A stretch of 56,292 bases of DNA, the filler included, from Sphacelaria rigidula (Eukaryota): assembly GCA_964200075.2 (NCBI GenBank). It is 6 parts of 6 records of this genome, joined end to end, with 100 filler letters (N's around TTAATTAATTAA, not from the genome) between each part and the next. Parts side by side here need not be neighbours in the genome. Positions count along the whole stretch, not along the records: positions 1 to 9,300 come from CAXNAA020008807.1; positions 9,401 to 18,700 come from CAXNAA020008808.1; positions 18,801 to 28,099 come from CAXNAA020008809.1; positions 28,200 to 37,497 come from CAXNAA020008810.1; positions 37,598 to 46,895 come from CAXNAA020008811.1; 1 more part is not named here. The stretch is one strand, 5' to 3'. The position numbers and the translations under genes are program-made. This document shows, in pieces, positions 6,588 to 46,290 of the stretch. Below the pieces are notes generated by a model. It did not search any database. It had not been told where the DNA came from and saw nothing but the letters and a program-made list of their open reading frames with translations. Position 1 is the stretch's first letter. The number at the start of each line of letters is the position of its first letter.

Positions 6588-6923
6588 GTAAGATGGATGC
6601 ACCCATTCCAGATAATGCTAGGTCTAGATTGAATATCACTGCCATCATTCAGTTGACGTCATACGTGTATTCCATGACTGCTACCGTCGTGAGTAGGAAG
6701 TCGACCGGCTTTGGTCTATCTATACAAGATACAGTACATCACCCCTTCAACTGCATTGAATAATTGGAACCATTTTCCGGCTGCGTGGGAGAAAGAACGT
6801 ACTGTACGCATTACATGCTTCGCACAGCTTGGGAAAACATCCTCTACAGCTACCCACCCATCCAGACACACGTCAGCAATGACGAAAATATCTCCTCGAT
6901 GCTACAACCACCCCCGCCACGTC

Positions 6924-7058
6924 TAACACACCACGGTGCTTCACGCTTGGTGATTGATTTTGAGTCTGGTCCGGCGAAAACCCGGCGTGCTCCGTTCCGG
7001 CTTTGTAGGGATGAGAGGCCAACGGTCATATGACTATGGTATGCAAGATCGTGAGTAC
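6924..7058 (+). mobile_element. Family A 5'-truncated retroposon-like copy with C-rich TSD
   Basis: Ends TATGACTATGGTATGCAAGATCGTGAGTAC then a C-run; CCCCCGCCACGTC is duplicated at 6911-6923 and 7068-7080. Confidence 0.75.
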
Positions 7059-7141
7059 CCCCCTCCCCCCCCGCCACGTCGCAGTGCACCAGACGATGAA
7101 ATCCCCCGCCCCGCATCCCTCCTCCCCCACAAAACGCTCAG

Positions 7142-7413
7142 GCTTACGCGGGAAAAATGGGGCCCTTCCTCGGCGAAGCGCCGCTCGTGGTCGACTGGCC
7201 GCGGCACGGATAGACGCAATCATTCGAGTACTCGCGCAAGAACTTTCACCCCGCCTTGGGGGTAGCAACGGAGGTGGCGGCAGCCGCGACGGCGGTCGAT
7301 TGGGAGACTTTGGCGGGGTGGAGGAAGGCAGTGGCGTGATGTTGAGCGTGTCAGCGATCAATGATGTCATTACGTTCCTCGACATGGACGAATCAGGGGA
7401 AATCGACTTCAAG
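7142..7413 (+). CDS. EF-hand protein exon (first EF loop DMDESGEIDFK|E)
   Basis: CTCAG acceptor, AAG|GTGGTT donor; the canonical 12-residue EF loop is completed by the first codon (E) of the next exon. Confidence 0.85.
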
Positions 7414-7889
7414 GTGGTTCGTTGTGTTCTAATTCCAGCGCTCGAATACGCGGAGGTGGTAGTAGGTGGTCCAACTCCCGCCTGGCTGCGGTCCCGTAGA
7501 TGACAGCAGTTTTTCCTCGTAATTGTCTCATCCGCAGGATTGAAATTTACCAAATCGAAAATCTGGCCCACCGCTTGACCGGTGAATGGTAAACTATAAA
7601 CGCGTTTTCACTCTCGGTGTCCTGCCATGGATTCTCTCTGCGAAACACGAACTCCGCGGATCACGTGGCCGGTACAAGAAAAATTACGTCTTTGCTGTCG
7701 CTTCAAACGAGAGCGTGAACGATGTTACAAGCGGCACTTTTACTTGCCGTCGCACATGCACACGCACTCTGTATTCCACGAAATATCTCGTTTGTCATAC
7801 GTCTGACAATGCCAACGTGTACTACAAACGATGCTCACCAATTTTGTGTTCCGTTGAACCAGCACTAAACAGCCCGTCGTCTCTTGCAG

Positions 7890-8021
7890 GAGCTGAAGGT
7901 GGCCATGAGCGCTGCGAAGCGGGGTCAGTTGTCCGATCCCGAACTGACTCGATCCATTCTCAAGATCAACGACGCTCTCCGACTCAGACACCTGAGGCTT
8001 TTCGATGTATTCCGACTTCTG
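7890..8021 (+). CDS. EF-hand protein exon (ELKVAM...LFDVFRLL)
   Basis: TCTTGCAG acceptor, CTG|GTGAGC donor, 132 nt, phase 0-0; supplies the exit helix of EF1 and the entry helix of EF2. Confidence 0.85.
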
Positions 8022-8863
8022 GTGAGCGTGCCACAAAAGGAGCGGCATACCATACGCTACGGTCAACAGCGAAGAACCGCCCCTTCATCGTCTCGTGGGG
8101 CTTCGTATCGATCTTATTCACGCCGCATTTTGACGGTTTCTACTCGTCCGTAGTGGCGAACGCACGTATGCAGCTGGATTGAACCCTTCCTTACCAAGTT
8201 AGGATGGCATGGTGTGAAAAACGTGAACAGCCACGACAGCGACTCGGTGCCACTGCGAACCGTGTTTCACGGGAATGTCGTGGTTCCTTACCTGACGCGC
8301 AGGTTTTCCGAACCGCACTGCTGGACCGAGAAGTCGTTACACGGTAGGGCGGAGTGTGAATTGTAGCCCGGAACGACAGGGTTCGTGGGCGAGATGTACC
8401 GCACAACGCAATATATCTCTATGTGCGTTCTCGCGAGGTAAAGCGTCGTCAAGCCACCCACACGTTGGCAGATATATATCGGCATCAAGGGCATTATGAG
8501 CGTTCCTCAGTGCTCCAAGAAATTTCTTAAAATGACTACTCTTGGGCAAAACTATAAAATGATCACGTGCGGCCCGGCCCCCCCTCTCACCCACTACAGT
8601 TGTATGGCTCCGAGGGAAAACCATATTTTGCTCCGTACATGCTATTTTCGTCAGTAATGCTACGTGCGGGGCAGCGCAGATGATATCCGCACCGTTCCCA
8701 CATATTGGGGGTATTTCAGTAAAAAAGGTATGACGAAACATCTTCAGGACTCTTGTTCACCGAACGCTCTGAGCCCTACCCTCGGCTATACCTCCCCGCA
8801 GCTAAAGCGTGATCATCCGAATATTGTTGCCCCGCCCGCGCCGGCGACTCCTTTGCTCCGCAG

Positions 8864-8937
8864 GACGTGGACGGCAACGGTACCCTATCGCATCAAGAGC
8901 TGTCCGAGGGATTGAGCGTGCTGTGCGGACACGATAG
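8864..8937 (+). CDS. EF-hand protein exon (second EF loop DVDGNGTLSHQE); gene continues beyond the contig
   Basis: CTCCGCAG acceptor, AG|GTACGT donor; canonical DxDxNGxLxxxE loop. Confidence 0.85.
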
Positions 8938-9224
8938 GTACGTACAATACCCAATAGCACACACGTATTTACCGGCGTCCTCCCGGGTTGTTCGTGTCGC
9001 AATCAAGAAAAAAGGTCTATCTATTCTACATCGCTATAAGAGTGATGAGCGATTACACGGTATCTTCCTGTGTGCGTTTTCACAACCACGCTGCCTTTGT
9101 GTTCACGTCACCTTCTGAGCGCCTCTTGTGACACACCCATTCAAAGTTCTGGAACATGACCAGTATCTCGAGTCCTCACACCAAACCTGCTTGCTTGGAC
9201 GTTCGCTTGTGCCCCCCCCCCCCC

Positions 9225-9300
9225 CAGACACCCATGAGGCAGTGTATAGGCTGTGGTTGTCTCGGGAAGTGGCGATACCAGATAATAAAGCAACTCATTG
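9225..9300 (+). mobile_element. Family A copy cut by the contig end
   Basis: Follows a pure C-run; homologous to about 40360-40435 and shares CAGATAATAAAGCAACTCATTG with 37432-37453. Confidence 0.7.
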
Positions 9301-10337: not shown

Positions 10338-10348
10338 ACGAAAAATTG

Positions 10349-10616
10349 GATGCGGTGGGTAGTTCGAAGAGTTAGGCGCTGAAATTTTGACACATGATTT
10401 TTATCATCACCACTCACAACATTTCTGGAGGTGCATCCGTACTTCTTTTTTTTTTTCACGGAGTTACAGCATTTGTGTGGTTTTTGCAGAAACTTCAAAT
10501 TGCTTTAACTTCCTGGGTTTTTTTTTCAATGCACCTCGAGAAATGTTGTGCGTAGTGATGGAAAAAATGGTGTGTCAAAATTTCAGCGCCCAACTCTTCA
10601 AAATACCCACCGCATC
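10349..10616. mobile_element. Almost fully palindromic MITE/foldback
   Basis: GATGCGGTGGGTAGTTCGAAGAGTTAGGCGCTGAAATTTTGACACA vs TGTGTCAAAATTTCAGCGCCCAACTCTTCAAAATACCCACCGCATC; symmetry runs to the centre at about 10485. Confidence 0.85.
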
Positions 10617-11316: not shown

Positions 11317-11510
11317 TGTACTCAGAATCTTATATGCCATAGTCATATCCCCATTGACCTCGCATCCCTACAAAGCCGGGACGGAGTACGCCGGGTTTTC
11401 GCCGGACCAGGCTCGCAATCAATCACCAATCGCGAAGCGCACTGATGTGTTTGGCGAGTCGCATGAAGGGTGAACTGTATCCTGCTGAGATTGTTCGGCC
11501 CGGAGCGTGC
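11317..11510 (-). mobile_element. Family A copy
   Basis: Reverse complement ends TATGACTATGGCATATAAGATTCTGAGTAC then ACCCACCCACC; body aligns to 40470-40655. Confidence 0.75.
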
Positions 11511-11642
11511 TGCTTATTTTGCATATAATGGGCGGCCTCCACATGACAGGGGAGTTGAGGAGGGGCATCCTTGCACCGTCAAATCAATACGTTTCGATGT
11601 ATCATTATCACCATCATCGCCATCGTTATCATCACCATCATC

Positions 11643-11673: not shown

Positions 11674-14656
11674 CATAATCATCAACACACATCCGCGGGC
11701 GACAGCGTAGCCGTGTCCTTTGTACGTGTTAGCGGCAACCGCTTGGCCGCACCGTTGAAACGAAGCCAGCATCATCAGCAACAATAGCAACAGCATTACC
11801 ACCATCATCAACAAAATACATGTCCTACCTGGTCACGTTGCTGATGACGATAACTATGACGACGAATGCTGAGACGTAGGGAGGCCCGGGCGGATAGAGG
11901 TGGCGACACAGTAAATAATGACAGCAAAAATAGGGGTGGCAACGAGACTTCTCTTGGATACTCGGGTCTGATATAATGGTGGGAGCAGGTGATGTTGTGA
12001 AGGGAAACGGCGTTGACGGTGTCATAGAGCAAGCGAGGTACTGCTAAATGCACGACGAGCTATCCATGAAAAATATTTCCAGCAGCAGTGGTGCCTACTT
12101 TGAATTCAGATAGTGCTAGTTGACACCGTAGATAGAGTGGAAGCGAACGATTTACCGAGCTTGCTAAAGTCCACCTTGAGGGAAAGAAGGAGGGTGAAAT
12201 GCCAGAATACATTTTTGATGAGCTAACGCCCTTGAGTTGACGTGTGTGTTTCCCACGCCTCTCTCTCTCTCCCTCTAACGGTGTGTCATTTTTGTCTGGC
12301 ACGACACTACATTTTCACCTCCGCTGATCCTGGCTGACCCATCCTTTTATTTCAATCGTCAAATTGGCGAACCTCTCCTCACATATCGCCGCTACACTCC
12401 TTTTTTTGTGACTGATCGTGCGATCATCACGGCGGGCACGCACGGGGTCACTTGAAGCGCACTGGGAATAGCTGGGTCTCACGTGAACCCGCGCATGATG
12501 CTATCACTCGAAGGTCTATAAAGCAGCTACGCATCCTCATGAGATGGATGTACAACTGACTTCTGCGCACGACAACCAGCTTCGAGAGTACCGCAACATT
12601 GTCCTTAATCTCTTCGGTTAGTCTTCAGGTAGATTTGGGTACAGTGTAGTTTGGCAATATTTCGAACGGGGCCAGCCTGGAGCAGTTTGTGGGCCTTGAA
12701 CAGCTTTACACGGGCCGTTTTAGAGAGTTAGACACTGAATTTTTGACACATTGGTTACGTCATCAAGACGGCGAAGCATAATGCCACACATGAGGAGAAA
12801 ATATCACGTTAGAGTTGTATCAGGATTCTGACAGCACTTTAAAGTGCCAAAAATCAACGAAAATAAGTACATCAGTTTCATTTTCGGTCAAGGAAACACG
12901 TTTCTGCGTATTGACGCAAAGAACGCACGTATGAAGTTTCAGCTCGTAGCTTCTGAAACTGAGTCGTGCCTTTTCGGTCAATATATACGTAACGGTGCAG
13001 GCATGTCGCTCCATAGGCCCTCTCGTCGTGTGTGCGCCTCCCTAGAGATACGCATTTTTTCATCAGGTCGGTGAAAAGAAAATGGCATTACTCCATGGGA
13101 AATGAACGTCTTTGCTTGAATGAAGACCTCTTATCTTAAGTGCGGAGGGTTCTTGTAGAACTAGGTCCAAAGATCCTAAACTTGGGTGCGGCGTTCCGCT
13201 TTTTGTGTGACACCGCTGCACCCCGAAGGTCCAAGTGGTACAGGAGACTCCAGCTACTGAGATCATTAGTGCGAATCCCGACAGATACCCTTTTTCGCAG
13301 AATCCGCTTCCGTCGGTGAGGTCATATACTATGTAGTACATGGCCCGTTGTGTCCTTTTCCAAGCGGCAGAGCGTGCATCAGCAGGTGGGTCCACACTTC
13401 ACAGCGATGTATCTACATTGGGTGAATTCGGGAAACTGGAAAGTCGGTGTGTGCTAGAGAAATGTCGATGTGAAAGCTGGCTCAGCTCGTATAAGTGTAC
13501 AGTCTAAGGGGAACTGCGCATCGTCGTGATGGTCTGCTGGCACACGTATGTGGTTGGTGAGTTGAATCTCAGTCACGGCGTGTTCTACACAAGACGACAA
13601 GGAGGCCGCTGCAAGCACGCTCGATTTGTTGAAAGAGGAGTCCAGGGCAATAGCAGAGTTCACCCGTTGATACTTGTAGGCACTATGACGAAACTGTGGT
13701 CTTGAGAGAGGTATAGTGGGTGTTTACGAGAGATAAACACACGATGAAAACATCAACATATTTTCAGTTTAGTCATCTACCACACATCGTTGTCTCGGCT
13801 CATCCCGCTCACCGCATCCACAGTATAGTAGTGGTAGTCTTGTTCTTCGTTCGTCCCACAAGTCGTGGGGTGCGTTCTGTCACTAGAGAGAGGTCCATCG
13901 CACTTTTTCTCTCAGCAAGATCCTACATGTTTTATGGGCTGGATCCCACAACTTTCTCCTCAATCTGCCAAGTCCACCGCACGTACGAGCCGCAGAAATA
14001 ACAACAAAGCATTGGCCAGAGAAGGTCATATTGTGAGTGCGCAGTTATTGTCGCGTGTTGATGCCACTTGTTACGGGATCGAGGGTCCAAGCCGATCAAC
14101 AGCAGAACATCATATGTAGGCCGTTCGGTAGCGTTTATTCAGGAAGTAGACGGCCAGGCGGATAGTAGCACCTCCGAAGAACTTGCTCTACTCTCTGGGA
14201 GGATTCTGGAACACGTTTGGCGACTTTTGATGCGCGCAGAGTGTCCCTGGCTGGGTCGGAAAGAATGAAACACGGCAGAAATTGTAAGGAGGTGCCTGAT
14301 CCACGACCATAGCCTCTGTGTGAATCTCGATTTGAAGTCAAACCACGCACACCGAAAATCGTCAAAAGTGATGAAGGGTGTCGGGGTCCTCTCTCAGGTA
14401 GTAGAGAGAAGGTAGTAGTAGAGGGAGTCATTCCAAGGTGGCATGCTCTAGTTCTCGTGCTTTGTTTTCTCACCCAAGTATTCGTAGCGCTTCCAATGGG
14501 CCAAAACATCATATGCTCATCATGCACCGTTACACCGTCATATTACCATGGAAAAAGATCTCATCAAGAGCGACCTTCTGTCGATAGTAGAGACCTTCGC
14601 CTGGAGAACAAGAATGGGATGATGCTGCGATTGCTCCTCACCCCAAACCAGCGCCT

Positions 14657-14685
14657 TATGACTATGGCATGCATGATCATGAGTA
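14657..14685 (+). mobile_element. Family A minimal copy (29 bp) with 18-19 bp TSD
   Basis: CACCCCAAACCAGCGCCT [TATGACTATGGCATGCATGATCATGAGTA] CACCCCAAAACCAGCGCCT. Confidence 0.8.
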
Positions 14686-14900
14686 CACCCCAAAACCAGC
14701 GCCTCCAAACTGCCACGAAGATAGCGGCCATACAACGCACGATGGTTGGTGTCAGACGGCATGAAGCACCTCATATGGGCGATAGGATTGGTGAAACAGG
14801 TCCAACTCGTGGGAATTCCTGTCTGCTCGGTGCGCTCAGCTTCAGTCATTTTGATTCGCATGTAGATTCTGCCTCCTAAAAAAAGCCACTTTTCTAGGGG
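14686..14900 (+). mobile_element. Family B dispersed repeat of about 210 bp (MITE-like)
   Basis: Colinear with 30030-30248 and 32330-32543; C-run at the left end and G-run at the right end form short TIRs. Confidence 0.7.
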
Positions 14901-16239: not shown

Positions 16240-17010
16240 TTTGGCCCTTCTTCGACATTCCACGCCCTGAAAGAGAACCAGGCGGAGTTTGACACCTTGG
16301 AATGACTTGATCTGCTCGTCGAGACGGTTCCCGAACGTCTCGATGTTTTCCGGTGGCCGCAGTTTTGATGTTGGTCAAACAGGCATTTTTGTCCAGAGAC
16401 GACCAAGTCCAGAGAAAAATGGCATTTTGTTTTCTATATTTGACTTCCTTGATCATTCATGGACGAAAATGCAAGTTTGGGCGAAATAAAAACTGCGGTC
16501 GCCGGAAAACTCGAAGATGTCATGAAACCGTCTCAACGAGTAGAGCGAATCATTCTGAGGTGTCAGACTCCGGCTAGCTCTCTCTGCGATGTAAAACGAC
16601 GAAGAAGGACAAAAAAAAGCATTTTTACAGGAGGACATTACTTTGTTCGCCTCAAGTACCGGCGTGGGAGAGCTGTGCGGAGTTTGACACCTTGAAATGA
16701 CTTGCTCTAGTCGTTGAGACGATACTTCTTCGAGTTTGCCGGTGTCTGCAGTTTACATTTCGCCCAAACTTGCATTTCTGTCCATGGACAGTCAATACTG
16801 GCCGAATCTAGGCAAAACTGTCATTCTCCTCAGTACTTGACTGTCTCAGGACAAACAAGCTTGTTCAGCCAACAGTAGTCGCGGCCACCGGTAAACGCGA
16901 AGACGTCCTACAACCGTTTCGACGAGTAGAGCGAGTCGTTCCAAGACGTCGACATCCGCCTAGCGCCTTCTTTGAGCGGGTACAACGACGCAGAAGGAGG
17001 AAAAAGGCAG
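16240..17010. repeat. Four alternating-orientation copies of a unit of about 150 bp (tandem double foldback)
   Basis: GGAGTTTGACACCTTG(G/A)AATGACTTG forward at about 16284 and 16679, reversed at about 16460-16620 and 16840-17010; another copy at 37265-37420. Confidence 0.8.
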
Positions 17011-17474
17011 GTATATTTTCATATATTTTCATTTGTTCGCAATAAGAAGCGGCCTGGGAAGTTGTTCATAAACACCGAAACGGTATCTTGTATTGTTTGT
17101 ATATAATGAATGGTCTGTCCACGAAATAGTGGCAACGTTTGCCCGGCCGGAAAAGTGCAAAAATAATGATATCTCTACGAAAATATGCCGAAAGGTAAAC
17201 TAGATCCGACAAATTCAATCGGAACTTCAGGTACGGAGGGTACGCGGAGCTTTGACCCCCTGAACCACGGAAAAGCCTTTCTTCGATAGACCCCCCGAAA
17301 CCAGCCTTCTTGATTCCTTTTCCTTATTGTGTTTCTTTTCTTCCCTACCATCCCATTTTCTATCTTCTTCCCTCTACTGCTTCTCTACATATCCCCCCCC
17401 CCCCCTTTTCTCTCTTCTGTTTTTTCCTGTTTTTTATTCTCTGTTTCCTTTTCTGTTTTTCCCTCTTTCTGTCG

Positions 17475-18005
17475 CTACCATAGCACAGCCCGGATAGACA
17501 TGAAATAGAGAAGCGAACCATCCCTTTTCTTTACCCTACCATATCACAGCCCGGACAAAGACATGGAATGACGAAGCAAACCATCCCTTTTCCTTCAACC
17601 AACAATAGCCCAGCCCGAACATAGACATGGAATAGAGAAACTATCCCTTCTTTTTCTTTCACCTACCATATCACAGCCTGGACATCGGCATGGAATGACG
17701 AATCTAACCCTCCTTTTTCTTTCACTTACCATAACACAGCCCGGACATGGACATGAAAAAAAGATGCCAACCCTGCTTTTTCTTTAATCTATTATATCAC
17801 AGTCCGGACATAGACATGGAATAGAGAGGCTAACTCTGCTTCTGCTTTAACCTACCATAACACAGCCCGGACATAGATATGAAATGAAGATGCTCACCAT
17901 CCTTTTTCTTTAACCTACCATAATGCAGCTCAGATATAGATATGAAATGAAGAAGCTTACCACCCTTTTTCTTTAGTCCTACAATAACACAGCACAGATA
18001 GAGAC
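17475..18005 (+). repeat. Minisatellite, about 9 copies of a ~63 bp unit
   Basis: CTACCATAWCACAGCCCGGACATAGACATGGAAT...CCCTTTTTCTTT units at about 17475, 17536, 17599, 17663, 17726, 17789, 17852, 17915 and 17979. Confidence 0.9.
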
Positions 18006-24980: not shown

Positions 24981-27629
24981 TTCCTCGTTTCCCCTTTCTC
25001 GTTTCGTTTGGCAACGCCCTCGCTACTTACGCTACGCTCTGAAGATAATAGTGTGATGTGATAGGGGTGAAGCACCTTGTGAAGGGTGTAATGGTGTTCA
25101 CAACGACTGTTCCAGGTTCAGACCTCAGTGTACGTTGTTTGTTTACTCGGCTCAGCAGCGCGGGCTGACCACAGTCGCTCTCATGTAGATCACACAAAGA
25201 GACAACGAGCAATTACAGACGAGTAGAACCGTTTTTGTTTCACACAATTGATTGTATACGAGCTTCATCTACAGCTTCAGCTACAGAACACAAATATAAC
25301 ACAAACCGAAACAGGCCTAAGTCTTGATCAATAAAACACACCAGACAAAACAGCAGCCCGACTACTGCTCTCATCTCTGGGACTCACTTTCGCGCGGTTT
25401 GTAGATACTCCAATGGGGAACTGTTGAATCGCAGCCAAAACCGGAATGAGACGAGAGTGAGGCTCGTAGGGGCTGGTTATTCAAACGTGTTTCGCCGCCC
25501 CCTAAATCAACAAATGACTAAGGCAAGCAACGAATGAGTACGCCCCCCCCCCCTCCCCTAAATCAACATAAACTGAGGTCATACCATAAATTGAAGAGAC
25601 GGGCTCCTCAATTCATGCCATGGTTGGGTCACTACCTTTCTTTAATTCAAATACAATCTCCCCGTAGACGTCAATTCAAGTGGCAGCCAATTCTCCGCTA
25701 TTTGAGTATGAAAATATCCATCATTCAATTTCACCTTTGCTCGAAATCATGGCTACGTCCTGCAGTCATATCGTATCACACTAGCCTCCAATGGGTAAAG
25801 CAACAGCAGTAAAACGCAGTGAAACGAGGTTGCTTTACCCACACATTCCATTCCCCCACACCACAGAAAAAATGAAAAATGCAAAACAAGATACCACAAT
25901 AATTTTTTAAAGAAAATGTGAGACACGTTAAGGGGGGTGTACTGTGACGGGGACTTAGAGGGCGATACGATATATTGAAAATAAAATAAAACCCGAAGGG
26001 TGTGAAAAACCCAAGAATCGACAATCCTCGAAAAATTAGCGCCGGAAGCTACGAAATATCCGGGAATCCAGGGCAAATCCGCCATGAAAAGAAAAAAAAA
26101 ACTGAAGCAGCGAAAAAAACAAGCCGGTAGTCCATCCGCTACAAAACCTTGATATAAAGCTTGACTGCTATCATGCGAAGGGGAAATCATGTCTCAATAG
26201 ACGTCCAGTTCCGCTGTGAGAGTTTTTTCAAGCAGCCCGCCAAGGCGTTTCACAGTACCGGGGAAGCACAAACGATCGTACACTTCTTTCATCAGTAGAA
26301 TCCAACGGTGTTGATTGCTCAAGGGGGAGAAGGAAATCGCTGAGCGGAAGACGCCGGAAACCAAAATCAACATGCAGCCGTGAGGCAACATGATGCACCA
26401 ACGTGACGATGAAGGGCGGCCCATCGAATTGAAAAGGTGCCCGTATCGTCCCACAAAGCGTCAACGAATAACACACAACCGTAGGAGATAAATCCAAGGC
26501 GGGTAATCCGATGCGTTCGTGGTGAACCACGGCAAGTATACAGAAAGAGAGGCCGATGCGGTCCGCTCTTAGATACATGCCCGTTCAGACGAGAAAATCG
26601 AGAGGGTGCGCATACAAACGGAAGGATAAACTCCCGCCGAGCACATCAACGCGATAATTTGCCAGCAATAACCCTACAACAAAAACGAACCACCGTACTG
26701 ATTTCCGAAGCGGCGGACCGGATGTACGACCTCGAGACTGCGAAAAACAAAACGTTTTTTTTCTTTTTGTTTTGGCGGACTGTTGTAGCAACGGAACTGA
26801 ACATAATCCAAGAAAAAAGAAATGTCCCCGATCATGGGACACCTGATACAGCGAGCGATTACACAGAATCTGCGACGGTACTCAAGGAGAGGGCTTGTTG
26901 GACATGCAACACATAACCCGGTCATCGAAAGCCAACGTGAGTCAAAAACACAAAACAAAAACACAAAACAAAGAAAAGAGTAGGGGGGGGAACGAATAAC
27001 AGGCTACGCCGAAATAACCAGTCCGTTGGAGAGGTTGATGGCGCACGTGGTTGGGCAATCGCACACACCGGGTGTGTGCCCCGTAAAGGGGTTGGTACTG
27101 GACGTGCTGAAGAATACCAACGGTGTGCGTCGGCCGCCTCCGAATACAAACAAAAAGAAAAACCAAAGACAAAAACAAGGAAGACAGGTGGCCATGCAAG
27201 GTAGGAAGAAGGGGAAACAGGACAGAACAAACAAAAACAGAAAAACAAAGAACAAAAACAAAAAACAAAAAACAAAAGCTAACAAAAACAAGGAAAGGAG
27301 AGCAAAAGCTTCATGCAGGAATAGGCATACGCGGCAACGGTTCAGTACAGAACACAGACATACGCGGCTACTGGGTACTGCCGAGGGAAACGTGGGCAAC
27401 CGGGCTACACGGGGTTCAAGGAAACGCGACCACGAGAGGACAAGGGGAAGCAGAGGAGAATTCTAAAACAAACACGACGAGACCAGGGGGACGACGATTG
27501 GCGGTAGGGAAAAACGCAGACAACCGACTCACAACGGTACTTGAGAAAACGACACCAACGACAAGACAAAAACAGGGGAGGTTTAAAGATCGCCAAAAAA
27601 ATCGGAAGGAACGCAATTTGCTATCAAGC

Positions 27630-29866: not shown

Positions 29867-30029
29867 CTGCGTCAAACGGGATACAGGCATCCCGGTGCAC
29901 ATATAGGTTGCCACATTGGTAGAAATCGACAGCATCACCCGAGGGGATTTCACAATGAGCAACGATTCGCGGCTCGCACCATGTACCGGAATCAGCTCCC
30001 ATGCTCTTTCAGGAGTCTTTCTACGCTAC

Positions 30030-30248
30030 CCTCCCTGAAACAAAAACCAGTCCAAAATTGTCACGAAGAGAATGGTCATACAGCGTCTGATGTTTGGTTC
30101 CAGGCTGCATGAAGCATCTCATATGGGGGACATTGGCGAAGACGAATTCAGGCGTGGGAATTCCCAGCTGCTCGTTGTGCTCGGCTTTTATCATTTCGAT
30201 TTACGTGTAGATTTTGCCCCCCCAAACCAGCTTCTTTTGGGGGGGAGG
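30030..30248 (+). mobile_element. Family B repeat
   Basis: Colinear with 14686-14900 and 32330-32543. Confidence 0.7.
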
Positions 30249-30585: not shown

Positions 30586-30628
30586 GTACTCATGATCATG
30601 CCTGCCATAGTCATAAGACCATTGACCT
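30586..30628 (-). mobile_element. Family A short copy (about 43 bp) between G-rich flanks
   Basis: GGGGGTGTACTCATGATCATGCCTGCCATAGTCATAAGACCATTGACC then TT and a long G-run. Confidence 0.75.
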
Positions 30629-31412
30629 TGGGGGGGGGGGGGGCAGCTGGGGCTCGCACCGTCACGTGGTGGGTGCACCGCCACCAAGACGTCGCTTAAT
30701 ATTAGCAGATGCAATTCATTGTCGAGGTACTAGAATATTTGCTGCATGAATTTTCCCACATATTCGTACAAATGATTCACATTCTGCCGTCACAATTGTT
30801 TGCCGGTGCATGCTCAACGCCCTTCTTACCGGCACCATTGTGAATCGGTGAACGTTTCCGGGCCGTTCCATGCAACCACATGGTGTCCATGGTCTCTACC
30901 CCACGTTGCCGATGAGTGTACTATGCTGTGTCCCGATCCTGGAGTACCAAGAGCTTTGGATTTCACAGGAAATCGATCGGTAGAAGACAGACGAATCGCT
31001 GGAGCCGATTGGCTGCACCTTCTTATATCTGGATTATAAACCGCGCCGGGAGTATCTCGAGAAATTCCTTGTATTGCACTTTCAGAGCCTGATGGTTTGC
31101 TGGATCGAAGTGAATAGCTGATGACGAGAATAATCAGCGAGTTGTGGGTCGAAGGAGACGAGATTAAGGCGCTTGCGTTGTTGCGCTACGCGACATGAGA
31201 AAAAATGTCGAAATTCAATTCCAGTCCGCAGAACTCCCAACATGCCAGTGTTTGAAGTCGGTTTTAAAACAAAATGTTTGAGGGGAGAAGGGGGAGGGGG
31301 GTATTCGTGAATTCCTCACACGACCCGCGCATGGGCCAGTTGAAGGCGCTTTCGCTTACTATCGGTCCTAGCGAGAAAAAGTAGCATAGGGAGACGTGAT
31401 GCTTGATGGGGG

Positions 31413-31709: not shown

Positions 31710-32329
31710 CTGACACGTCAAGACAATATTTTGGCACACAGACACATTCGAGAGGTATTGCCCCAGGGATAACCGTCAAACTGTTCTCTCCCGGCTAGTG
31801 CGTATTCTGTTCGAACTATGCAAGTGATCCTGCTTTCTCTTCACCGTGCCGTTCAGTACGTGTGCCCGGTGATTTTGATGACTAATTGACTGATTGGTTG
31901 GTTGCCATGCATTGGCTGATCCCCGACGGACCCGGTCGTGGCCACAATACAAATGTACTCAAGGTAAACGGAACGGAAACGCTCGCTAGAGGAAAGAGTC
32001 ATGCTACAGTAGGGGTATACATCCAGGCCCAAATCTTTCTCATGCAGGGGCTCCTGAAGTTAGGAGCTACCCAATAATATGGGCCCGGACGTTCACGTTT
32101 TCATCTTCAGTCGGGATATCCCCAGCCCATTGGAATGCTAATCTTGGTGTGCTCTCACATATGTCAGATGTTGTTTTTGGATGACATACGGGGCTCCGAA
32201 CAATCGAACCTCAGAAAATGTTTGAACACCCCCACCGTAAAACCACTCGAAAGGGAAAGTGAGAAGAAAAATACATTAAACCATAGGATTGAACTGAGTG
32301 TAATTCCCAAGATTGATGCCCCGTTAGCA

Positions 32330-32543
32330 CCCCCCCAAAAAAATCAGCCTCAAAACTGTCACGAAGAAAATGGCCATTCAGCGCATGATGTTTGGTTTCA
32401 GACTGCGTCAAGCGTTTTATATGAATGACACAGGCAAGAACGATCTCAAGCGTAGGAGTTCCCAGCTGTTCGGTGTCCCCGGATTCCCTCCTTTTGATTT
32501 ACATGTATATTTTGCTCCTCAAACCAGACACTTTCTGGGGTGG
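32330..32543 (+). mobile_element. Family B repeat
   Basis: Colinear with 14686-14900 and 30030-30248. Confidence 0.7.
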
Positions 32544-34700: not shown

Positions 34701-37427
34701 GATATGACGCCGGTACAATTGATGTGCAGATCAGTACCGTGCTTATCCGACAATATCTCCGAATGGAACCCTGTACAAAACACCGGCTGTCTTTCTCCTG
34801 AAGATGCTTGGTGGGTCACAACACGGCCAACAACAGACCTGGCGGTATGCTCCATCTTTTAGTATGACAATTTCCACGAGTACTCGTGACTCGTGGGCAT
34901 TTGAGGCATTGCGGCGTAATCAGTCACGGTTCGATAAGAATCCAAATGTCGCGGTCGATTGACATCACGACTGCTTCATGAACGAGCACACATATCCATT
35001 CCTACGCCTATGCGTTCGTGTTCGTCTGATGAGGGATATTGTCATGATGCAGTATTATAGTATCATTTGGAACTCCAGCGGGCTGTAAACAGCCGCAAAA
35101 ACTGTCGTTCCCACGAAAAAATGAGCCAACGGTTGGACGAACGGATAATGGATGATGACGTTAGTGTATGCTGGTCTACCGAACTAGTGTTCCGCATCAG
35201 GGCGAGACATGATGGAGACAACCAGAGCAACATAAGACTGGGCACAGGATTTGAGCTATAAAGGTGTGTTCGGTTGTGTTAAATTGGTAGAAATATTACT
35301 TCAGGGCGATGTATTGCGTCTTACTGCGTTGGAGATGGCATGCAGTTAACCGCATTAGCTGGGTAGCCGGTGTGTCACAGTTTGTTGTAATGTAAAATGC
35401 AAGTACCAGCGAAAAGTCGCTCCATCGGCGATGGTGCCACACACACGTCTGACAACACATCAACTCTACTGATGTGCAGTACCATACTTTACCTTAAGAA
35501 CGCTCGGCAGCTGGTACATATAATGCTGGTACGCCTGTTAATTTCCCATTTGGCTTCGTCTCCGTCAAATCGAGCGCTACACCTTGTTAGCGACAGCTGC
35601 CCTCGTTTGTGCGTATCTCTCACCAATTTGCGATCTTTAGCGCGCCAATTTGCCAGGTTTCAGTTTTCCAGATTTACACTACAGGACACTTGTGGTACGC
35701 CGCGCTACAGTGCTACCGAACGCGGTACCCTGTCGATATGTCTACATTCTGTTGTGTGTTGACGGGCATCATAGGTACAAATGCCGATCACCCACTCCAC
35801 AGCAGACGGATTCTCATGAAGAAAGGGTCACACTGCCAGTAGAGACGGCAACATCTGAGTACGAGCTGGGCCAACTGACGGTGGTTTTTGAATTTATCCT
35901 GGCGATGCGACTGGCAATTCGAAGAGTTTTCAGGGGCTGGGCTGGGTTTTGACACGGCATTTTTATCATCAATCCGCGCAACATTGTCGGGGGTGCAGAC
36001 GAAAAAAAACAACAACAGGAACTTAGAGTGAGTTGAGGTTTCGGCAGAAACAAGAAAACTGCTGTAACTCCGTGAAAAAATGATGAACACGGCTGCACCC
36101 CGAATAATGTTGTAGGCACTCGCGTCCAGGAGATCATGGTGAAGTTTCGGCCAAAATACCTCAAATTGGGCGCCGCATCGCACTTTTCGTGTAACACGGC
36201 CGCGCCCATTTATTCCAAGCGATACAGGAGACTCCAGTTATATGGAGGTCATGTGTTCGAACCCCAATGGATAATTTTTTTTTTTCGTTCCGTCGTAAAG
36301 GTCATACATATCATGCAGTACATTTGTTTTCTTCTTTTTTTCTTTCATTCAGAGGCGGTGCCGTGTCACCAGGTTGGTATACAGTTCACAGCGATATGCT
36401 CAAGTCGCGCTGATTTAGGAAACTTGAAAAGTTGTGGTGTGGACAGCGAATGCGGGATTTACTGCTGACCCAGCTCGTACCTGCTAGCTCCTGTATTGTG
36501 CCGATAATGCAGCATCCCAACGTTCAACACTCCTGCTGGGACATGGTGTCCGTAGTCACCATGGCGTCTAACTTTTCATTTATGCTTGGACTTTATCATT
36601 TATGCATGGACTGACTTTGGCTGCACGGAACTGAAAACTTCTCTCTACAGGTGACTCGTGACTTGTCCCGGATAATCTTACATCATACGCAAGCGTAGCG
36701 GGATCCGAGGCAAACAAGTAGCCCAGGTGATGATGGCAGCTGGTACAAGATGTGTCGCCTTCAGTACCATGCCTTGCCTGCCTCGGTCCTATGTTTACCC
36801 ACGGATCTCCCCCAGGAAACCATGGATTCAGGAATCCTGCCGGCTGTTTCAGGCAAGACAAGGTCCTTCAGATGCCCCCCCCCCCGCGCCATCGCTTTTC
36901 CGCGTTTCATACAATAGGACGGAGCTGCTGATTGAGTGGTTACAGAAACAACGCCATCTAGTTTGCCTCTGTGAATACCCACAAGTTCCTCCCAAAGTAC
37001 CGCTACACGGACGCCTCGAAGGCTTGTTCAGCAAGGCATGCCTCTTCTAAAGCCATTTTCATATCTGTTCACACGTCACTTGTAAGACGACGTGGTTGCT
37101 TGAGTACTGCGCCGTTGCCCCACTTTGAGGTACAGACGTGTGCCTGAAACCGTAGTTATTACCACGTGCCAATCGACGTTTTTCCATGCTTTTGAGCTGC
37201 TCCTCTCAAAGCGTGTCTTAGGCTACTCATGTATAAAAAAATGAAATTTGTTGAAAAAGTCCATATTTGACCCTTCTGTATCGTTTTTCGCCTGAAAAGA
37301 GGGCTAGGCGGATGTTCACACCTTGGAATGACTCGCCGTACTCATCAAGAGGGCTTCAGAGCAACTTTGCGTTTTCCGTAGGTCACAGTTTCGTTTTTGA
37401 CCAAACTTGCATTTTCAATAACGAGCG

Positions 37428-37497
37428 ATATCAGATAATAAAGCAACTCATTGCAGGCTGTCATCCAAATGCAAGATAATCAGCAGGCTTCGGGTCG
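37428..37497 (+). mobile_element. Family A copy cut by the contig end
   Basis: Homologous to 9275-9300 and 40408-40480. Confidence 0.7.
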
Positions 37498-37880: not shown

Positions 37881-39705
37881 ACACTCTACCCTAATTTGAG
37901 TACCTCATGTCTCCCAAAATATCCCGCAATTGAGTATACTTTCGTTCGATTCGGCGTACTCATATGTTGCTTGCTTTCGTCGTTTGACCAGTGACCACGC
38001 ATCCCTTCAGAGACAAAGTATTTTATTTGCGGGGGCGGGGGGGGGGGGGGGGGGGGGGGGGAGGGGTAATGGGGGGGGACCGGGGGATTTGGTCTTGTTT
38101 ATAGTTTTTTGGTGGGTGTGTGGAAAAAAAAAGCGGCGGAANNNNNNNNGGGGGTGGGGGGGGGGGTGGGGGGGGGGGGGGGGGGGGGGGGTGGGGGTAA
38201 GCAGGGTAATAAGGGATGACCGCGTGCTTTCGCGTTGTTCATACTTTTCTGCGAGTTTTGTGGATCAATCAATCGACGTGAAAGCGCTGACGTTATTCGA
38301 TTGGTGTTGGGAACGACAACAATGTTGCGCAGCCCGCTTTGGTAAGGGTGCAGACTTGAACAAAAAAAAGTGTGTTCCGTAAGACTTGTGTGATGAAAAG
38401 AGTTGCGATCCCTCGCTTGCGTCCGGTAATCTGACGGATTTTGCTTCGACGAGAGTCGACGTGAGTGCCATTCCTGGATCCACCGGAACTACGGACTTCA
38501 ATATTAAAAGCCGACTTGTTTAGTGGGAGATTACCAGGAAGGTGTGTTTTTCTGGCTCAGTTTAGTATGCCTCTTGAGGTTTTACTGTTGGCGACATGAT
38601 CGGCACCAGTAGAAGTCCTGATGGATTGTATTTGTGTAGATCCCACTGCTGTAAAAGTTTAGTGCTGGAATTGACGCTTCGCCACTTTCCCGTATTTCGC
38701 GGAAGCATCTATCAAGATCGCCTTATTTTTCCCGTTTTTTTCAGTTCACTTTGTTGTTCGTGTTCTTCCTTGTCCACCGTTCCCCTTGTCGAGTCTCCTG
38801 TATGTACCTGCTCTACTGTATGGTGTCCTTGGACTTCTCCACTCATGCAGTCTCCTTTTTTTCTGTTCCCTTGTTCTCTCCACATCTCTAATGGTATGTG
38901 TGTTGTTTCCTCCCGGTGAATGCAAGCCGCTGTTTGATGACTCGCTTCCGTAGCATTCATGGGTGAGAGGCCATACCCAAAATAGTGTGGCCGAAATGTA
39001 TGAGCCGGAATCTATCCCCACACCCCTTTACTTTCTGCTCTCGATTGGGTATGAATGCGTTTCCTGTTGCGCAAGACCTTGCCCGCCTGAAGCCGCGTTG
39101 CAGAGGCCGGCCACATACATACTTGTCTTTGTATTATTTTACTTTCTGTTTATTTCACCTTTTTTCTTCCTGCACTCTTATTCAGCGAGTGTTTCCTTTT
39201 TGTTTTTGTCTCGGGTGCGTCTATCGTGTGGATAATGACCACGACTAGATCATGACTTTCTGGGAGATCCGTTAATGTGTGACAATCCAGCAATAAATCA
39301 ATTTAGCAACCTGTAGCGAGTGTTCCCGGTTACATATCTTGGGTGGTACGCTCAGCGTATGTGTAACCACGGCTGGTTTCGTGGTGGATGAGTTGATGTG
39401 CCGCACCTGACCAGTCAATGAAATACACGTGCCCAAGGCCTTGACGTATGTAGTTGGTTTCCGCGACGGCGTTATCCTGCGAACAGTAACTCTCCGCCAA
39501 CAGACGTTGATTTCCGAAGTGTGTGCATTGGAAGCACGGTGTTGTCAGTGCCCGAAATCTCTGTAAGGTTGGTGCTGTCAGGACAGGCCGATAGTCTCGT
39601 GTGTCCTGAAGCTCCTTTTTTTGCCGCATACGCTGCTGACTTGCGCGCTCCGTCTCTCCCCTTCCCTCCCCTTCTCTCTCCCGCCTGTCGTTTGCCGGAC
39701 AACAG

Positions 39706-39774: not shown

Positions 39775-40282
39775 GTGAGTGCACGGTGCAGTATCGAGGA
39801 TTTTGGCGCCAACCGGTATCAACTTGCTGTAGTTGTCATTGACTAAACGTGTATAGAACAATAGCTGTTTTGTATTGATGGGTGTATGAAGAAAAAAGAA
39901 ATACTCTCTTTTTCTTGCCCGTGCCCGCTAACATCATGTTGGTCTTGTGACAATATGGCAGACGGAGAATTGGCTCACGGAAAATACGGAGACATGAAGT
40001 TCCATGATTAACCGCCTCAGAATCATGTGCTGTATGACGAGTAACAACAACGGCGAGCCAAGCCCGGCTCCAGCACCGCCATCCATAATATTGCTGGTTC
40101 AATGACGCATGCTATCACGGCCCAATCCCCCCCCCCCCCCTCGCCCCTCCCCACCTGGAGGGCTGGTGTCGGTTGGAAACGACGCTGTATAACACGCAAC
40201 TCGCAACGTGATATAAAGCAAGCAGGTGACCGTTTAATTTTCATCCTCGTTTTTTTGCGGTAAGCACCACTGGTGATGGAGT

Positions 40283-40655
40283 CAGATACATGGTGCGGGG
40301 TGGATAATCTCAACGCCACGCAAAGGAGATGCTCGTACCACGTAGTGTTGTCATAGCAAGATACCCGTGAGGCAGTGTGTCACCCGTGGCTGTCTCTGAA
40401 AGTGGCGAGACCAGATAACGAAGCGACTCGTTCGAGGCTGTCATCCATGTGCAAGATACTCGGGACGCTTGGGGCCGAGCAATCTCAGCAGGATGTAGCT
40501 CACTCTTCATGCGACTCGCCGAGCACATCACGGCGCTTCGCGCTTGGTAACTGACTGCGAACCTGGTCCGCTGAAAACCCGGTATGCTCCGTCCTGACGT
40601 CGTAGGGATGCGAAGTCAACAGTTTCATGACTACGGCTTGCAAAATAATGAGTAT
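40283..40655 (+). mobile_element. Family A longest copy (may extend left to about 40156)
   Basis: Aligns with 45925-46290(-), 11317-11510(-), 6924-7058 and 9225-9300; ends ATAATGAGTAT then CCGTCCCTCCCCCGCC; a similar C-rich tract lies at 40126-40155. Confidence 0.75.
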
Positions 40656-40696
40656 CCGTCCCTCCCCCGCCAACCCCCTTCTCCCCCAACATGCAG

Positions 40697-43267: not shown

Positions 43268-43397
43268 GGATGGTGACGTTCTGATGGTGTCTAGGCGAGT
43301 AGGGCCTACGATGTCCAGGGCGCCGCTGCTCGACGGTGATGGGGAGCTGCTACCGAAGCCGAAGGCGATTTTCGAGCAGTGGTTCTACGACTTTGCG
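43268..43397 (+). CDS. Exon of probable USP-type deubiquitinase
   Basis: GTACAG acceptor (phase 2), GCG|GTGTGT donor; DGDVLMVSRR...APLLDGDGELLPKPKAIFEQWFYDFA. Confidence 0.8.
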
Positions 43398-44758
43398 GTG
43401 TGTGTGCTTCCGTATGTGTATTGCGTGTATACTAATGTACCCTCCTTTTTTTTCTTCTTTTTTGCACGAGACGTGACGAGTGCGTAGGAGTAGTGTGCAT
43501 GTAGACGGTACCGGGGGAGAGGTTGGTTGATTTATCGAGACCACTCACTCATCATGATGAAGAGGATGGGGGACCAAAGGTATGGCGAGTAAAAAGAGAA
43601 GACGATCAGTACAGATCAGTGTGTACAAGGCATCGGCGGCAAAGTGATGGGTTTTGAAACGCCTGCTGCTTGCTTCACCGTGAAATTGTTTTCGCATCAT
43701 TCGTAGTTTTGTGTGCTCATCTTTGTCGACTCATTTTTTTTATTTTTCATCTTGGGTACATCTGTACTGCGACCACAGCTGGTTCCGGGGGCCCCAGCTA
43801 ATGTGCTACAATGAATCAATTTGATGGTATAGTCTCTGGGTATGATATTGCTTCAGTCTCCAGACATTTTATAACCTTCGAACGGCGTATTTCGAAACGT
43901 GACCTTCCCGGCACCCGATACGGATTGACTGATATTCTGGGTGATCGATTGTCGCACATCAGCTGATCCGTTTCGAATCCAGCAGACAAAAAAGATGGGT
44001 TCCGTAAGCATCACTTGTGTTGATGAGTATCGTAATCGGTGTTAGCATGTGCACCGTAATTGGCGAGTAAATGTTTTCTTCTGCAGGAAGCACTGTCACG
44101 GGGTGTACAGGAATATTGGGTATGCAAGGGCGGCCCAGGCTGTAATTTTGAACCCCAAGAAAACGTGTAACTACGTGGTGATTCTGAAAAAAAGTGCTAT
44201 CGATAATCACTTTCTGTTAGTGCAATCCATCATCACGTGGTTATAGTATCGTGTGAAACTGGGTCATGTATCGGAACGTTTTGCGTTTGTCCTCATCCTT
44301 CCTGTGTCGCTGGAATCGATGGTGTCACGGCTGTACCTTTTTAGCAAAGTTGAATGCTGGTGATTTTCCTTTCCATCAAGGGTGAGAATCGGAAACCTCC
44401 AGCAAACCAAACACCCAGTTCGTCGTTTGATGATCAAGTCATCGAGGAAGATATCATCATTGAGGTAGTTTTCGCCATATTTTCCCCTAAACTGTATTTT
44501 TACCTTGAAGATCGTGACTAGTTCAGGCATTGGTTACTTGAAGCGGTCTGTTACCCTCCTCATTCCTCATTTTTCGTACACAGAAGGCTTCTTGTTATTT
44601 TTAGTGCGCTTCGCAAGAGCAAGCGTGCCCAACAAACACCAGCGCAGCGAGGGCTTGCTTTGTCGCTCTGTACAAACCAACTCTACTTCACGAGACATAC
44701 GTGAAGAACTGATGTCGGATATCGGGAACCATGTTGTTCCTATTGGTTTGCAACCCAG

Positions 44759-44862
44759 AATCCCCAAGGCCATATGGATAGAGTCGGCGCCGCCGGCTTC
44801 ATCGACAGCTGCTGCCGGGACAACTGCAAACCCACGGACGACCGCGTGGACAGGTTCTTCAG
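44759..44862 (+). CDS. Exon of probable USP-type deubiquitinase (EF-hand-like region)
   Basis: ACCCAG acceptor, AG|GTGAGC donor; NPQGHMDRVGAAGFIDSCCRDNCKPTDDRVDRFF; this frame is absent from the ORF track. Confidence 0.75.
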
Positions 44863-45261
44863 GTGAGCCTCACCCGTTCTCCGTGCCAGCTTGAACGATT
44901 TTGGCGCGACATGTCGTGTATCGACCTTGGATTGACTGCCAGCTTTTGTGACACACGACCGCCGTGTTCGACTCCTCGTGCGCGCGACCTATTCTCGGAA
45001 CAGTTCATCATCACCATTTTTGGTTCATTTACTCCACTTGTCATACCTGACTTTATCTGTGTAAAGTTCCCATTTTGTCGAGTTTCCTTTAGCGAGGTTC
45101 TACTGTTTCCGTTTCTCTAACCTCGGGTACGTCCATGTTGTGGCCATGGCCGGGTCTCTCGGGGGTCAGTTAACGGGCGACACCCAATCGATATATCAGT
45201 GTCTATTTCACCCCCCTCGGCGCTAGGCCTCTTTTCGGTACAGTATCATCAACTGAAAAAA

Positions 45262-45533
45262 ACTCGATGTTGTGTTTTGTAGGGTATACCCGGAAGTGGG
45301 GATTTTTTGTTGGCACACTAAACGACGCTGGAATGTGTACCGAACATTCCGGTATAGTCCGGCAGGGTATCGAACCCTGTTCCGAACATTCCGGTATAGT
45401 TCGGCAGGGTATCGAACCCTGTTCCGAACACACCGGTATGGCCCGGAATGGTATTTACCCATGAAATACCTCCTTCATTCTTGTGTGAATACCCAGATTT
45501 ACAGCCGGCATACCGTACAGAACACAACTCTGG
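45262..45533. mobile_element. MITE-like element with internal 42-bp tandem repeat
   Basis: GTTGTGTTTTGTAGGGTATACCCG mirrored by CGGCATACCGTACAGAACACAAC; about 2.4 copies of CCGAACATTCCGGTATAGTYCGGCAGGGTATCGAACCCTGTT at 45340-45440. Confidence 0.7.
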
Positions 45534-45924
45534 GAAAACTCCTGCTTGCTTGCGAGCACCATCCGCAGTGGCAATATGTGCCGTGTACTAAGTGATCCCA
45601 AATCGCTGAATCACGTGGTCGTTCGACCAAAGCAATTGTTTTTCACATATTTTGAGTGGTCTACCGGAGATCAATCTGAGGTGACTTGGCGCCCTTGAGC
45701 ACTAAAGAGATCAAACGAAACGCATGGATCGTGGGTTGGGGAGCGTGAGAAGATGCTTCTTCTGTCCCATAATTATGTTCGGTTATGCTTGTACGTGCTC
45801 TCAACTACGCCCGATAGTGTTTACAATTCCATTTTTTGATGAGCATCTCCATAATTTCATCTCTTTACCGATCCTCACTATAGCATGGTAAGCGCCTCCG
45901 CTCGGGAGACCTACAGTACACCCC

Positions 45925-46290
45925 ATAAACGACTGCATCCCGTAGTCGTAAAACCATTGACCTCGCATCCCTGCAAAGCCGGGACAATGCACGCCGGGTT
46001 TTCGCAGGACCAGGCTCGCAGTCACCAAGCGCGAGGCGTTGTGATGTGTTCGGCGAGAGTCGCATGAGGGGTAATATTCATCGTGCTGATATTGTTCGGG
46101 CGGAAACGTACCAACTATCTCGCGCAAGGACGACAGCCTCGAATGAGTTGCTTCATCTTTTGCCATCGTTACTTCCAGAGACAGCCACTGGTTACACTGC
46201 CTCACGGGCGTGTCACAATTTCAACACTACGCAATACGATCATCGCCTTTGCGCGGCATTGGGGTTCTCCCACCCCGCACAATATGATCT
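45925..46290 (-). mobile_element. Family A long copy
   Basis: Reverse-complement colinear with 40283-40645; terminal bases diverge from the family consensus. Confidence 0.75.

What the first reader, a model, noticed from the sequence alone, without database searches (positions are those of the whole stretch)
6911..46290. Family A: candidate oligo(C)/oligo(G)-targeting, poly(A)-less non-LTR retroposon
Seen: eight homologous pieces on four independent contigs (6924-7058+, 9225-9300+, 11317-11510-, 14657-14685+, 30586-30628-, 37428-37497+, 40283-40655+, 45925-46290-). Five share one 3' terminus, ATGACTAYGGNWTGCAWGATCRTGAGTAY, which runs straight into a C-rich tract. Their 5' ends are ragged (about 29, 43, 135, 190 and over 370 bp). 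Two copies have clear flanking direct repeats that begin in a C-run (13 bp at 6911/7068; 18-19 bp at 14639/14686). There are no TIRs, no poly(A) and no Helitron CTAG end. Established: a fixed 3' end, 5' truncation and variable-length TSDs are the signature of target-primed reverse transcription; repeat-targeting LINEs are known (SART/TRAS at telomeric repeats, Waldo, Kibi/Koshi). Inference: this element nicks at G-runs and primes on a C-rich RNA tail, a preference I do not recognise as described. The autonomous partner is not visible in the window.
Basis: partly seen in the sequence, partly recalled or inferred. Interest (0 to 1): 0.75.

Follow-up and report, generated by a model that had tools for sequence, protein, structure and literature searches.

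The report
C-run-targeting short retroposon of brown alga
This is a real, abundant short jumping gene that appears to borrow a longer retrotransposon's enzymes to paste itself into runs of cytosine; the same kind of pair is already catalogued in the model brown alga Ectocarpus, so it is largely ordinary.

Summary
Family A is a high-copy, non-coding retroposon of about 510-560 bp (1,665 exact 3' termini genome-wide, control 0). It has a fixed 3' end, 5' truncation, no terminal inverted repeats or poly(A), and 9-18 bp duplications that begin in a C-run. A C5 run lies 5' of 36 of 69 copies (background 2-3.5%). The likely partner was found: a single-ORF APE-RT LINE in the same genome whose last ~70 nt match family A at 55 of 66 ungapped columns, and which ends in and inserts at C-runs too. 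Its closest named relatives are Ectocarpus proteins. The preference is not new: the Ectocarpus TE catalogue (PMC12477816) lists RTE-X LINEs with (C)n ends and C-rich TSDs, and a ~600 bp dependant, RTEX-N1_Ec32, sharing 60 bp at 83%. I could not compare sequences with it. A long C-tailed RNA is not supported: the 3' C-tract is not usually longer than the 5' one. Unexplained: 5' ends cluster at three positions, and a 47-nt segment is repeated at the 5' end. Verdict: new member of a known kind.

The parts
6911..6923 (+). Left copy of a 13-bp target-site duplication, starting in a C-run
   Evidence: identical to 7068-7080
6924..7058 (+). Family A, 5'-truncated copy (~135 nt) with the fixed 3' terminus
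   Evidence: 87.5% to the family consensus; terminus match
7059..7080 (+). 9-nt C-rich spacer and right copy of the duplication (7068-7080)
9212..9300 (+). C14 run (9212-9225), then a family A copy starting ~297 nt before the terminus; cut by the contig end
   Evidence: 89% to consensus 217-291; falls in the 288-305 nt class
11318..11541 (-). Family A, 5'-truncated copy (~224 nt) with terminus and C-rich 3' flank
   Evidence: 88% to consensus 290-513
14639..14704 (+). Minimal family A copy (14658-14686) between 18/19-nt duplications that differ by one A
30586..30643 (-). 43-nt family A copy (30586-30628) preceded by a C14 run; no unique duplication
   Evidence: 93% to consensus 471-513
37425..37497 (+). 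Internal family A fragment cut by the contig end; no C-run at its 5' side
   Evidence: 89% to consensus 263-335
40151..40655 (+). Nearly full-length, old family A copy (form without the 47-nt 5' repeat), between C-rich tracts at 40126-40153 and 40656-40689
   Evidence: 81% to consensus 5-512; head shared with most of L001-L030
45934..46291 (-). Decayed family A copy, 3' end eroded
   Evidence: 84% to consensus 139-500
25511..25541 (+). 3' terminus of the partner LINE (family B) followed by a C-run
   Evidence: 93.5% to the LINE tail
37956..38014 (-). 59-nt 3' piece of the partner LINE
   Evidence: 90% to the LINE tail
56225..56292 (+). Internal piece of the partner LINE's 3' region, cut by the window end
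   Evidence: 97% over 68 nt

Best explanation
Family A is a SINE-like, non-autonomous retroposon mobilised in trans by an RTE-X-type LINE of a brown alga. Shown: fixed 3' end, 5' truncation, C-run targets, 9-18 bp TSDs, and a ~70-nt tail shared with an APE-RT LINE that has the same target habit. Inferred: the LINE protein binds two small stem-loops in the shared tail; its APE endonuclease nicks the G-rich strand inside or at the edge of a G-run; the freed oligo(G) 3' end pairs with a few terminal C's of the RNA and primes reverse transcription; a second nick 9-18 bp away gives the duplication. This is the L1 scheme with G/C in place of T/A (L1 scheme recalled). Each new copy ends in a C-run and so offers a new target, which gives nested and tandem copies.
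For: Terminus counts 1,665 (A) and 1,130 (LINE tail), controls 0. TSD called in 15 of 69 A copies (mismatched-pair control mean 1.2, max 3) and 11 of 41 LINE-tail copies (control 0.5, max 3); 12 of 15 and 9 of 11 start with CCC. C5 within 25 nt 5' of the boundary: 36 of 69 and 25 of 41, G5 0 of 69 and 1 of 41, background 2-3.5%. LINE: RVT_1 E=1.9e-24 and Exo_endo_phos E=1.3e-5 on natural fragments; intact 1,360-aa single-ORF relative at 74% identity (P0002); best solved relative L1 ORF2p. The LINE tail follows the ORF end in 36 of 41 distinct places that cover it. Tails agree at 55 of 72 columns, 55 of 66 ungapped; 10 of the 17 differences lie in the two predicted loops and 1 in the 22 stem columns (read). 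The LINE groups with Ectocarpus proteins (100/98), apart from 14 other LINE copies whose printed ends are mostly (CAA)n or (CAAT)n. This mirrors Ectocarpus: RTE-X (C)n, RTE (CAA)n. Stem-loop recognition of tails by LINE proteins: PMC4176376 abstract.
Against: 54 of 69 A copies had no TSD at my strict threshold. No LINE with an A-type end was found (0 of 74 A termini with their own RT upstream; 0 of 41 LINE places), so the true mobiliser may be a sister family. All LINE copies scored are broken or partial. The tail is protein-coding in the LINE, which confounds the stem-versus-loop pattern, and folding z-scores are modest (-1.5 for the tail). The RTE-X label rests on parallels with the Ectocarpus table; no labelled RTE-X sequence was in my tree.
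Confidence: 0.86

Rival explanations
1. Non-autonomous Chlamys-type Penelope-like element: these target (C)n, are 5'-truncated and form partial tandems (pseudo-LTRs).
For: (C)n targeting and tandem non-autonomous Chlamys are published; Chlamys occur in Ectocarpus. Family A has tandem copies and a 47-nt direct repeat at its 5' end in 14 of 35 full-length copies.
Against: The shared tail belongs to an APE-RT LINE, not a GIY-YIG/Penelope RT. Ectocarpus Chlamys-1 is listed with an (A)n end. The 5' repeat lacks the terminal 47 nt and has a constant junction, unlike a ragged partial tandem. I did not search the genome for Chlamys elements.
Confidence: 0.04
2. The RNA carries a long poly(C) tail, equivalent to poly(A) of L1, and the 3' C-runs are copied from it.
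For: In 9 of 26 TSD-bearing copies the 3' tract is longer than the 5' one, by about 10 nt in L046, L102 and L112. C makes up 86-98% of positions 2-4 after the terminus.
Against: In 14 of 26 the 3' tract is shorter and in 3 equal; in 9 of 15 A copies the TSD starts one base after the terminus. My two tract measures are rough and not defined identically. Slippage or read-through of a donor's own flank explains the longer cases.
Confidence: 0.1
3. The conserved end is one end of a DNA transposon or Helitron-like element, and the C-runs are incidental low-complexity DNA.
For: C- and G-runs are common in this window.
Against: Best inverted match between the two ends is 5 bp; TSD lengths vary from 9 to 18; C-runs are strand-specific (C5 36 of 69, G5 0 of 69); the tail is the end of a LINE ORF.
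Confidence: 0.01

Closest known systems
RTEX-N1_Ec32 (Ectocarpus sp. 7; PMC12477816, section 5 and supplementary file 1)
   Same: Non-autonomous, ~600 bp, most abundant family there; 60-bp 3' end 83% like RTEX-1/2; C-rich TSD; can be tandem; 5' head of unknown origin; two subfamilies. Family A: 510-562 bp, tail 83% (55 of 66) like its LINE, C-rich TSD, tandem copies, no Pol III boxes, two head types.
   Different: Different host genome (LINE RT 67% or less identical to Ectocarpus-linked proteins); copies are older (88-92% to consensus); the 47-nt 5' repeat and clustered 5' ends are not mentioned in what I read. Sequence identity to RTEX-N1 untested: the FASTA supplements cannot be read here. 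RTEX-N1 (2.48 Mb) may be the older 'Sower' repeat (~2.5 Mb, PMC3145265); that link is my inference.
RTEX-1_Ec32 / RTEX-2_Ec32 (RTE-X LINEs)
   Same: Single EN-RT ORF, (C)n 3' end, C-rich TSD. The LINE found here has all three, and two Ectocarpus protein clusters end in the same C-terminal peptide that the shared tail encodes.
   Different: Copies here are broken and mostly 5'-truncated (longest shared stretch ~4.9 kb); I could not confirm that the Ectocarpus clusters P0003 and P0006/P0091 are RTEX-1/2.
Chlamys Penelope-like elements, e.g. MRC1 (PMC8557442)
   Same: Insertion bias to (C)n; 5' truncation; tandem non-autonomous forms.
   Different: GIY-YIG endonuclease and telomerase-related RT, not APE and LINE RT.
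Stringent SINE/LINE pairs such as eel UnaSINE1/UnaL2 and zebrafish ZfL2 (PMC3747384, PMC4176376)
   Same: Shared 3' tail with predicted stem-loop, non-poly(A) end.
   Different: No tRNA-derived head detected here; oligo(C) end and G-run target.

Membership tests
Non-autonomous non-LTR retroposon | Fixed 3' end with 5' truncation | tested here: met
   74 termini, aligned lengths 29-513 nt
Non-autonomous non-LTR retroposon | Variable-length TSDs | tested here: met
   9-17 bp in 15 of 69 copies, control 1.2
Non-autonomous non-LTR retroposon | 3' tail shared with an autonomous LINE of the same genome | tested here: met
   55 of 66 ungapped columns; tail follows the ORF in 36 of 41 places
SINE in the strict sense | tRNA-, 7SL- or 5S-derived head with Pol III boxes | tested here: not met
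   No A or B box; ARAGORN 0 in 13 loci; no relevant Rfam match in 15 loci. A diverged head could be missed.
RTE-X clade (partner LINE) | Single ORF with APE endonuclease and LINE RT | tested here: met
   Pfam on fragments; intact relative P0002
RTE-X clade (partner LINE) | RT groups with labelled RTE-X references | not testable with these tools
   No Repbase sequences available; the tree shows only that it groups with Ectocarpus proteins and apart from the (CAA)n/(CAAT)n-tailed LINEs
Ectocarpus RTEX-1/2/N1 group | (C)n 3' end and C-rich TSD | tested here: met
   against the table
Ectocarpus RTEX-1/2/N1 group | Nucleotide similarity to RTEX-N1_Ec32 | not testable with these tools
   FASTA supplements cannot be read
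Chlamys Penelope-like elements | 3' end shared with a GIY-YIG plus Penelope-RT element | tested here: not met
   The element sharing the tail is APE plus LINE RT; the genome was not searched for Chlamys
TIR DNA transposon | Terminal inverted repeats and fixed-length TSD | tested here: not met
   5-bp best inverted match; TSD 9-18 bp
HDV-like or hammerhead ribozyme-bearing retroelement | Ribozyme core at the 5' end | tested here: not met
   No Rfam match; no hit with my recalled HDV descriptor (3 of 100 shuffles hit) or hammerhead core

The most novel reading that the evidence does not exclude
The 47-nt segment is a 5'-end-forming RNA module (an unknown self-cleaving or host-processed fold, or an internal promoter). 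It starts the 562-nt form, and its second copy starts the ~98-nt form, so one master yields discrete short retroposons. It works with an APE endonuclease that reads G-runs, and with a tail signal written into the last codons of the LINE protein across a wide clade. Basis: 12 of 69 5' ends fall in an 8-nt window at the segment's start and 9 in an 18-nt window near 300 nt, against 6 in the 378 nt between the classes; C-rich loose ends pile up before 6966 in 68, 38, 22 and 98 contigs of four runs; the 5' copy is predicted to pair with the head through three helices at probability 0.8-1.0, though z is only -1.6. A reverse-transcriptase stop at a hairpin explains the clusters as well.
Probability: 0.15. 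Interest if true: 0.6.

Novelty: new member of a known kind. Interest (0 to 1): 0.24.

Why it matters
It extends the C-run-targeting RTE-X LINE plus short dependant pair beyond Ectocarpus to another, probably brown-algal, genome and puts numbers on target and TSD, which the Ectocarpus paper gives only as table notes. It is useful for repeat masking: at least 1,665 and 1,130 termini, many at contig ends. The open biochemical point is how an APE endonuclease and RT came to use G-runs and oligo(C) in place of T-runs and poly(A); an intact relative (P0002) makes that testable.

Tried and rejected
Chlamys/Penelope reading: considered first because of (C)n targeting and tandems; rejected once the tail was traced to an APE-RT LINE. 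Pol III head, tRNA, known ribozymes: none. Similarity of the head to the LINE's 5' region: only inserted family A pieces were hit in 5 long LINE copies. A second LINE family with an A-type end: a search with P0005 returned the same family. C-runs after other LINE RTs proved internal or flanking; those families end in (CAA)n or (CAAT)n where the end was reached. Empty sites: none shown in four runs laid on 4000-9300; contigs show presence only, and these runs may include the source sample. Expression: no RNA holder listed. Exceptional RNA structure: z from +0.4 to -2.3 over ten windows, not strong. An idea that the 6924 copy sits in a splice-acceptor tract could not be confirmed. Earlier findings of this scan: none returned. 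Paper searches listed no mechanistic study of G-run nicking by RTE-X; I read only listings for most hits, and Repbase and subscription papers are not covered.
Full report
Setting. The window is a chain of ~9.3-kb contigs joined by 100-nt spacers from a 244-Mb, 27,214-contig genome. The closest named relatives of its LINE protein are Ectocarpus proteins and one run holding the DNA is labelled algae metagenome, so the host is probably a brown alga (inference).

Observation. All eight pieces exist, on four contigs, at 81-94% identity to a consensus built from genomic copies. Five carry the terminus and run into C-rich DNA. Both named duplications are real; the second has a one-base indel. The 40283 copy begins near 40151 and is nearly complete. 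The exact terminus occurs 1,665 times genome-wide against 0 for the reversed pattern.

Anatomy. The body is ~513 nt from a conserved head to the terminus. Of 35 full-length copies in my loci, 15 were flagged with an extra 5' segment; one is a tandem neighbour, leaving 14. These are 533-568 nt and 88-92% like their consensus. The extra 47 nt repeat positions -95 to -48 of the 3' region, with a constant junction to the head. It occurs with one head type (15 of 25), not with the other (0 of 13), and in 1 of 5 unclassified heads. There is no terminal inverted repeat beyond 5 bp, no Pol III box, no tRNA and no known ribozyme.

Targets. I took 74 distinct family A termini from the exact-match list, which favours young copies, and dropped 5 with under 60 nt of flank. 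A TSD was called in 15 of 69 (9-17 bp; mismatched-pair control mean 1.2, max 3); 54 had none at a threshold needing at least four matched non-C bases. Twelve of 15 start with CCC. Independently of TSD calls, 36 of 69 have C5 within 25 nt upstream of the 5' boundary, 0 of 69 have G5, and background is 2-3.5%; A6 follows the terminus in 1 of 69. The 3' C-tract was longer than the 5' one in 5, shorter in 8 and equal in 2 of the 15; for the LINE tail 4, 6 and 1 of 11 (a rough measure). The run is therefore mostly duplicated target.

Partner. A related terminus (family B, 1,130 exact matches, control 0) lay downstream of 1 of the 30 best RVT_1 loci. Extending that family gave a LINE with APE and RT in one ORF: 5 of 11 natural fragments hit Pfam, RVT_1 at 1.9e-24 and Exo_endo_phos at 1.3e-5, three more endonuclease hits weak. 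An intact 1,360-aa relative is 74% identical, and the best solved relative is L1 ORF2p. Sixty loci (50 distinct places) were checked; 41 places cover the ORF end and 36 of them end in family B, almost always 7 nt after the last codon. Families A and B agree at 55 of 72 columns, 55 of 66 ungapped. B has the same targets: TSD 11 of 41 (6 of 47 dropped; control 0.5), C5 upstream 25 of 41. No LINE with an A-type end appeared: 0 of 74 A termini had their own RT in the 0.7-1.5 kb upstream that I held, and the one A end beside a LINE is a nested short copy. The shared tail encodes the LINE's last residues, and a similar C-terminal peptide ends many distant homologues. In a tree of 39 RT pieces, the six copies from this genome group with P0002, P0003, P0005 and P0091 (100/98), two of which belong to Ectocarpus-containing clusters; 14 other LINE copies form their own clade (100/100), and their printed ends are mostly (CAA)n or (CAAT)n.

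Mechanism. Shown: the junction pattern of target-primed reverse transcription, strand-specific C-run targets, and a tail shared with an APE-RT LINE. Inferred: tail recognition through two small hairpins (10 of 17 A/B differences in loops, 1 in 22 stem columns; confounded by coding in B, z -1.5), a nick on the G-rich strand, priming on a few terminal C's, and a second nick 9-18 bp away. Another A or B terminus lies within 70 nt upstream of 3 of 69 A and 6 of 41 B copies, as expected if each copy's end is a new target.

Comparison with what is known. PMC12477816 (seen: passages, section 5 part 1 of 2, supplementary file 1 part 1 of 3, term searches over 5 supplements; FASTA files unreadable) lists RTEX-1 and -2_Ec32 as single EN-RT ORFs with (C)n ends and C-rich TSDs, and RTEX-N1_Ec32 as a 604-607 bp dependant with a 60-bp 3' end at 83%, C-rich TSD, tandem copies and an unknown head; RTE families end in (CAA)n. 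PMC8557442 (abstract, passages, section 10) reports (C)n targeting by Chlamys elements. PMC4421812 (passages) names an RTEX-1 in Saccharina. PMC3145265 (one passage) describes Sower. PMC4176376 (abstract) and PMC3747384 (passages) cover stringent tail recognition; PMC5753468 (passages) only lists RTEX as a clade. Family A works like RTEX-N1_Ec32 on every feature I could test. Membership by sequence, and the RTE-X label by phylogeny, are untested; the unread FASTA supplements bear directly on both.

Unexplained. 5' ends cluster: 27 of 69 at 29-60 nt, 12 at 92-99, 9 at 288-305 and 9 at 496-513, with 6 at 61-91 and 6 in the 378 nt between the upper classes; B clusters near 65 nt. Contigs of four runs show C-rich loose ends just before 6966, the start of the 47-nt segment (68, 38, 22, 98 contigs; agreement 0.45-0.48), and 37 contigs of one run pass from 7010 into the head; these runs need not be independent of the assembly. 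A polymerase stop at a hairpin is the plain explanation; a 5'-end-forming module is the bold one.

Verdict. Real and correctly read as a C-run-targeting retroposon, but a new member of a described kind. Interest 0.24.

Noticed in passing
P0001-P0062 C-termini; window 25511-25541: The LINE has almost no 3' untranslated region: the tail shared with family A is the end of the ORF, and a similar terminal peptide closes many distant homologues of 40-50% RT identity, so the RNA signal may overlap the last codons across the clade.
   Followed up: partly
window 17460-17974: Tandem array of about eight 63-bp units, 70-85% alike.
   Followed up: no
window 5772-6256, 804-1333, 10349-10616: Large inverted-repeat elements (arms 71-145 nt, 82-89% complementary); 5772-6256 draws very many contigs. 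MITE-like.
   Followed up: no
window 45161-45192, 47136-47167: Short repeats that resemble by eye the (CAAT)n-tailed 3' end of the other LINE family seen in L127, L128, L132, L134.
   Followed up: partly
window 54602-55039 (-): Reading frame with a glutathione S-transferase C-terminal domain, E=2.1e-8; probably an exon.
   Followed up: partly
window 22104-22925 (-) and 49508-53516 (+): Broken frames that look by eye like copia-type polyprotein pieces; the four frames scanned had no Pfam hit.
   Followed up: partly
window 14808-14900, 30024-30245, 32322-32543; 16273-16961, 37299-37414: Two further dispersed repeat families, unrelated to family A.
   Followed up: no
window 7139-7398: A contig of a run guessed to be RNA covers this stretch, inside a 162-aa frame just 3' of the 6924 copy, with 59 unaligned letters in front.
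   Followed up: partly
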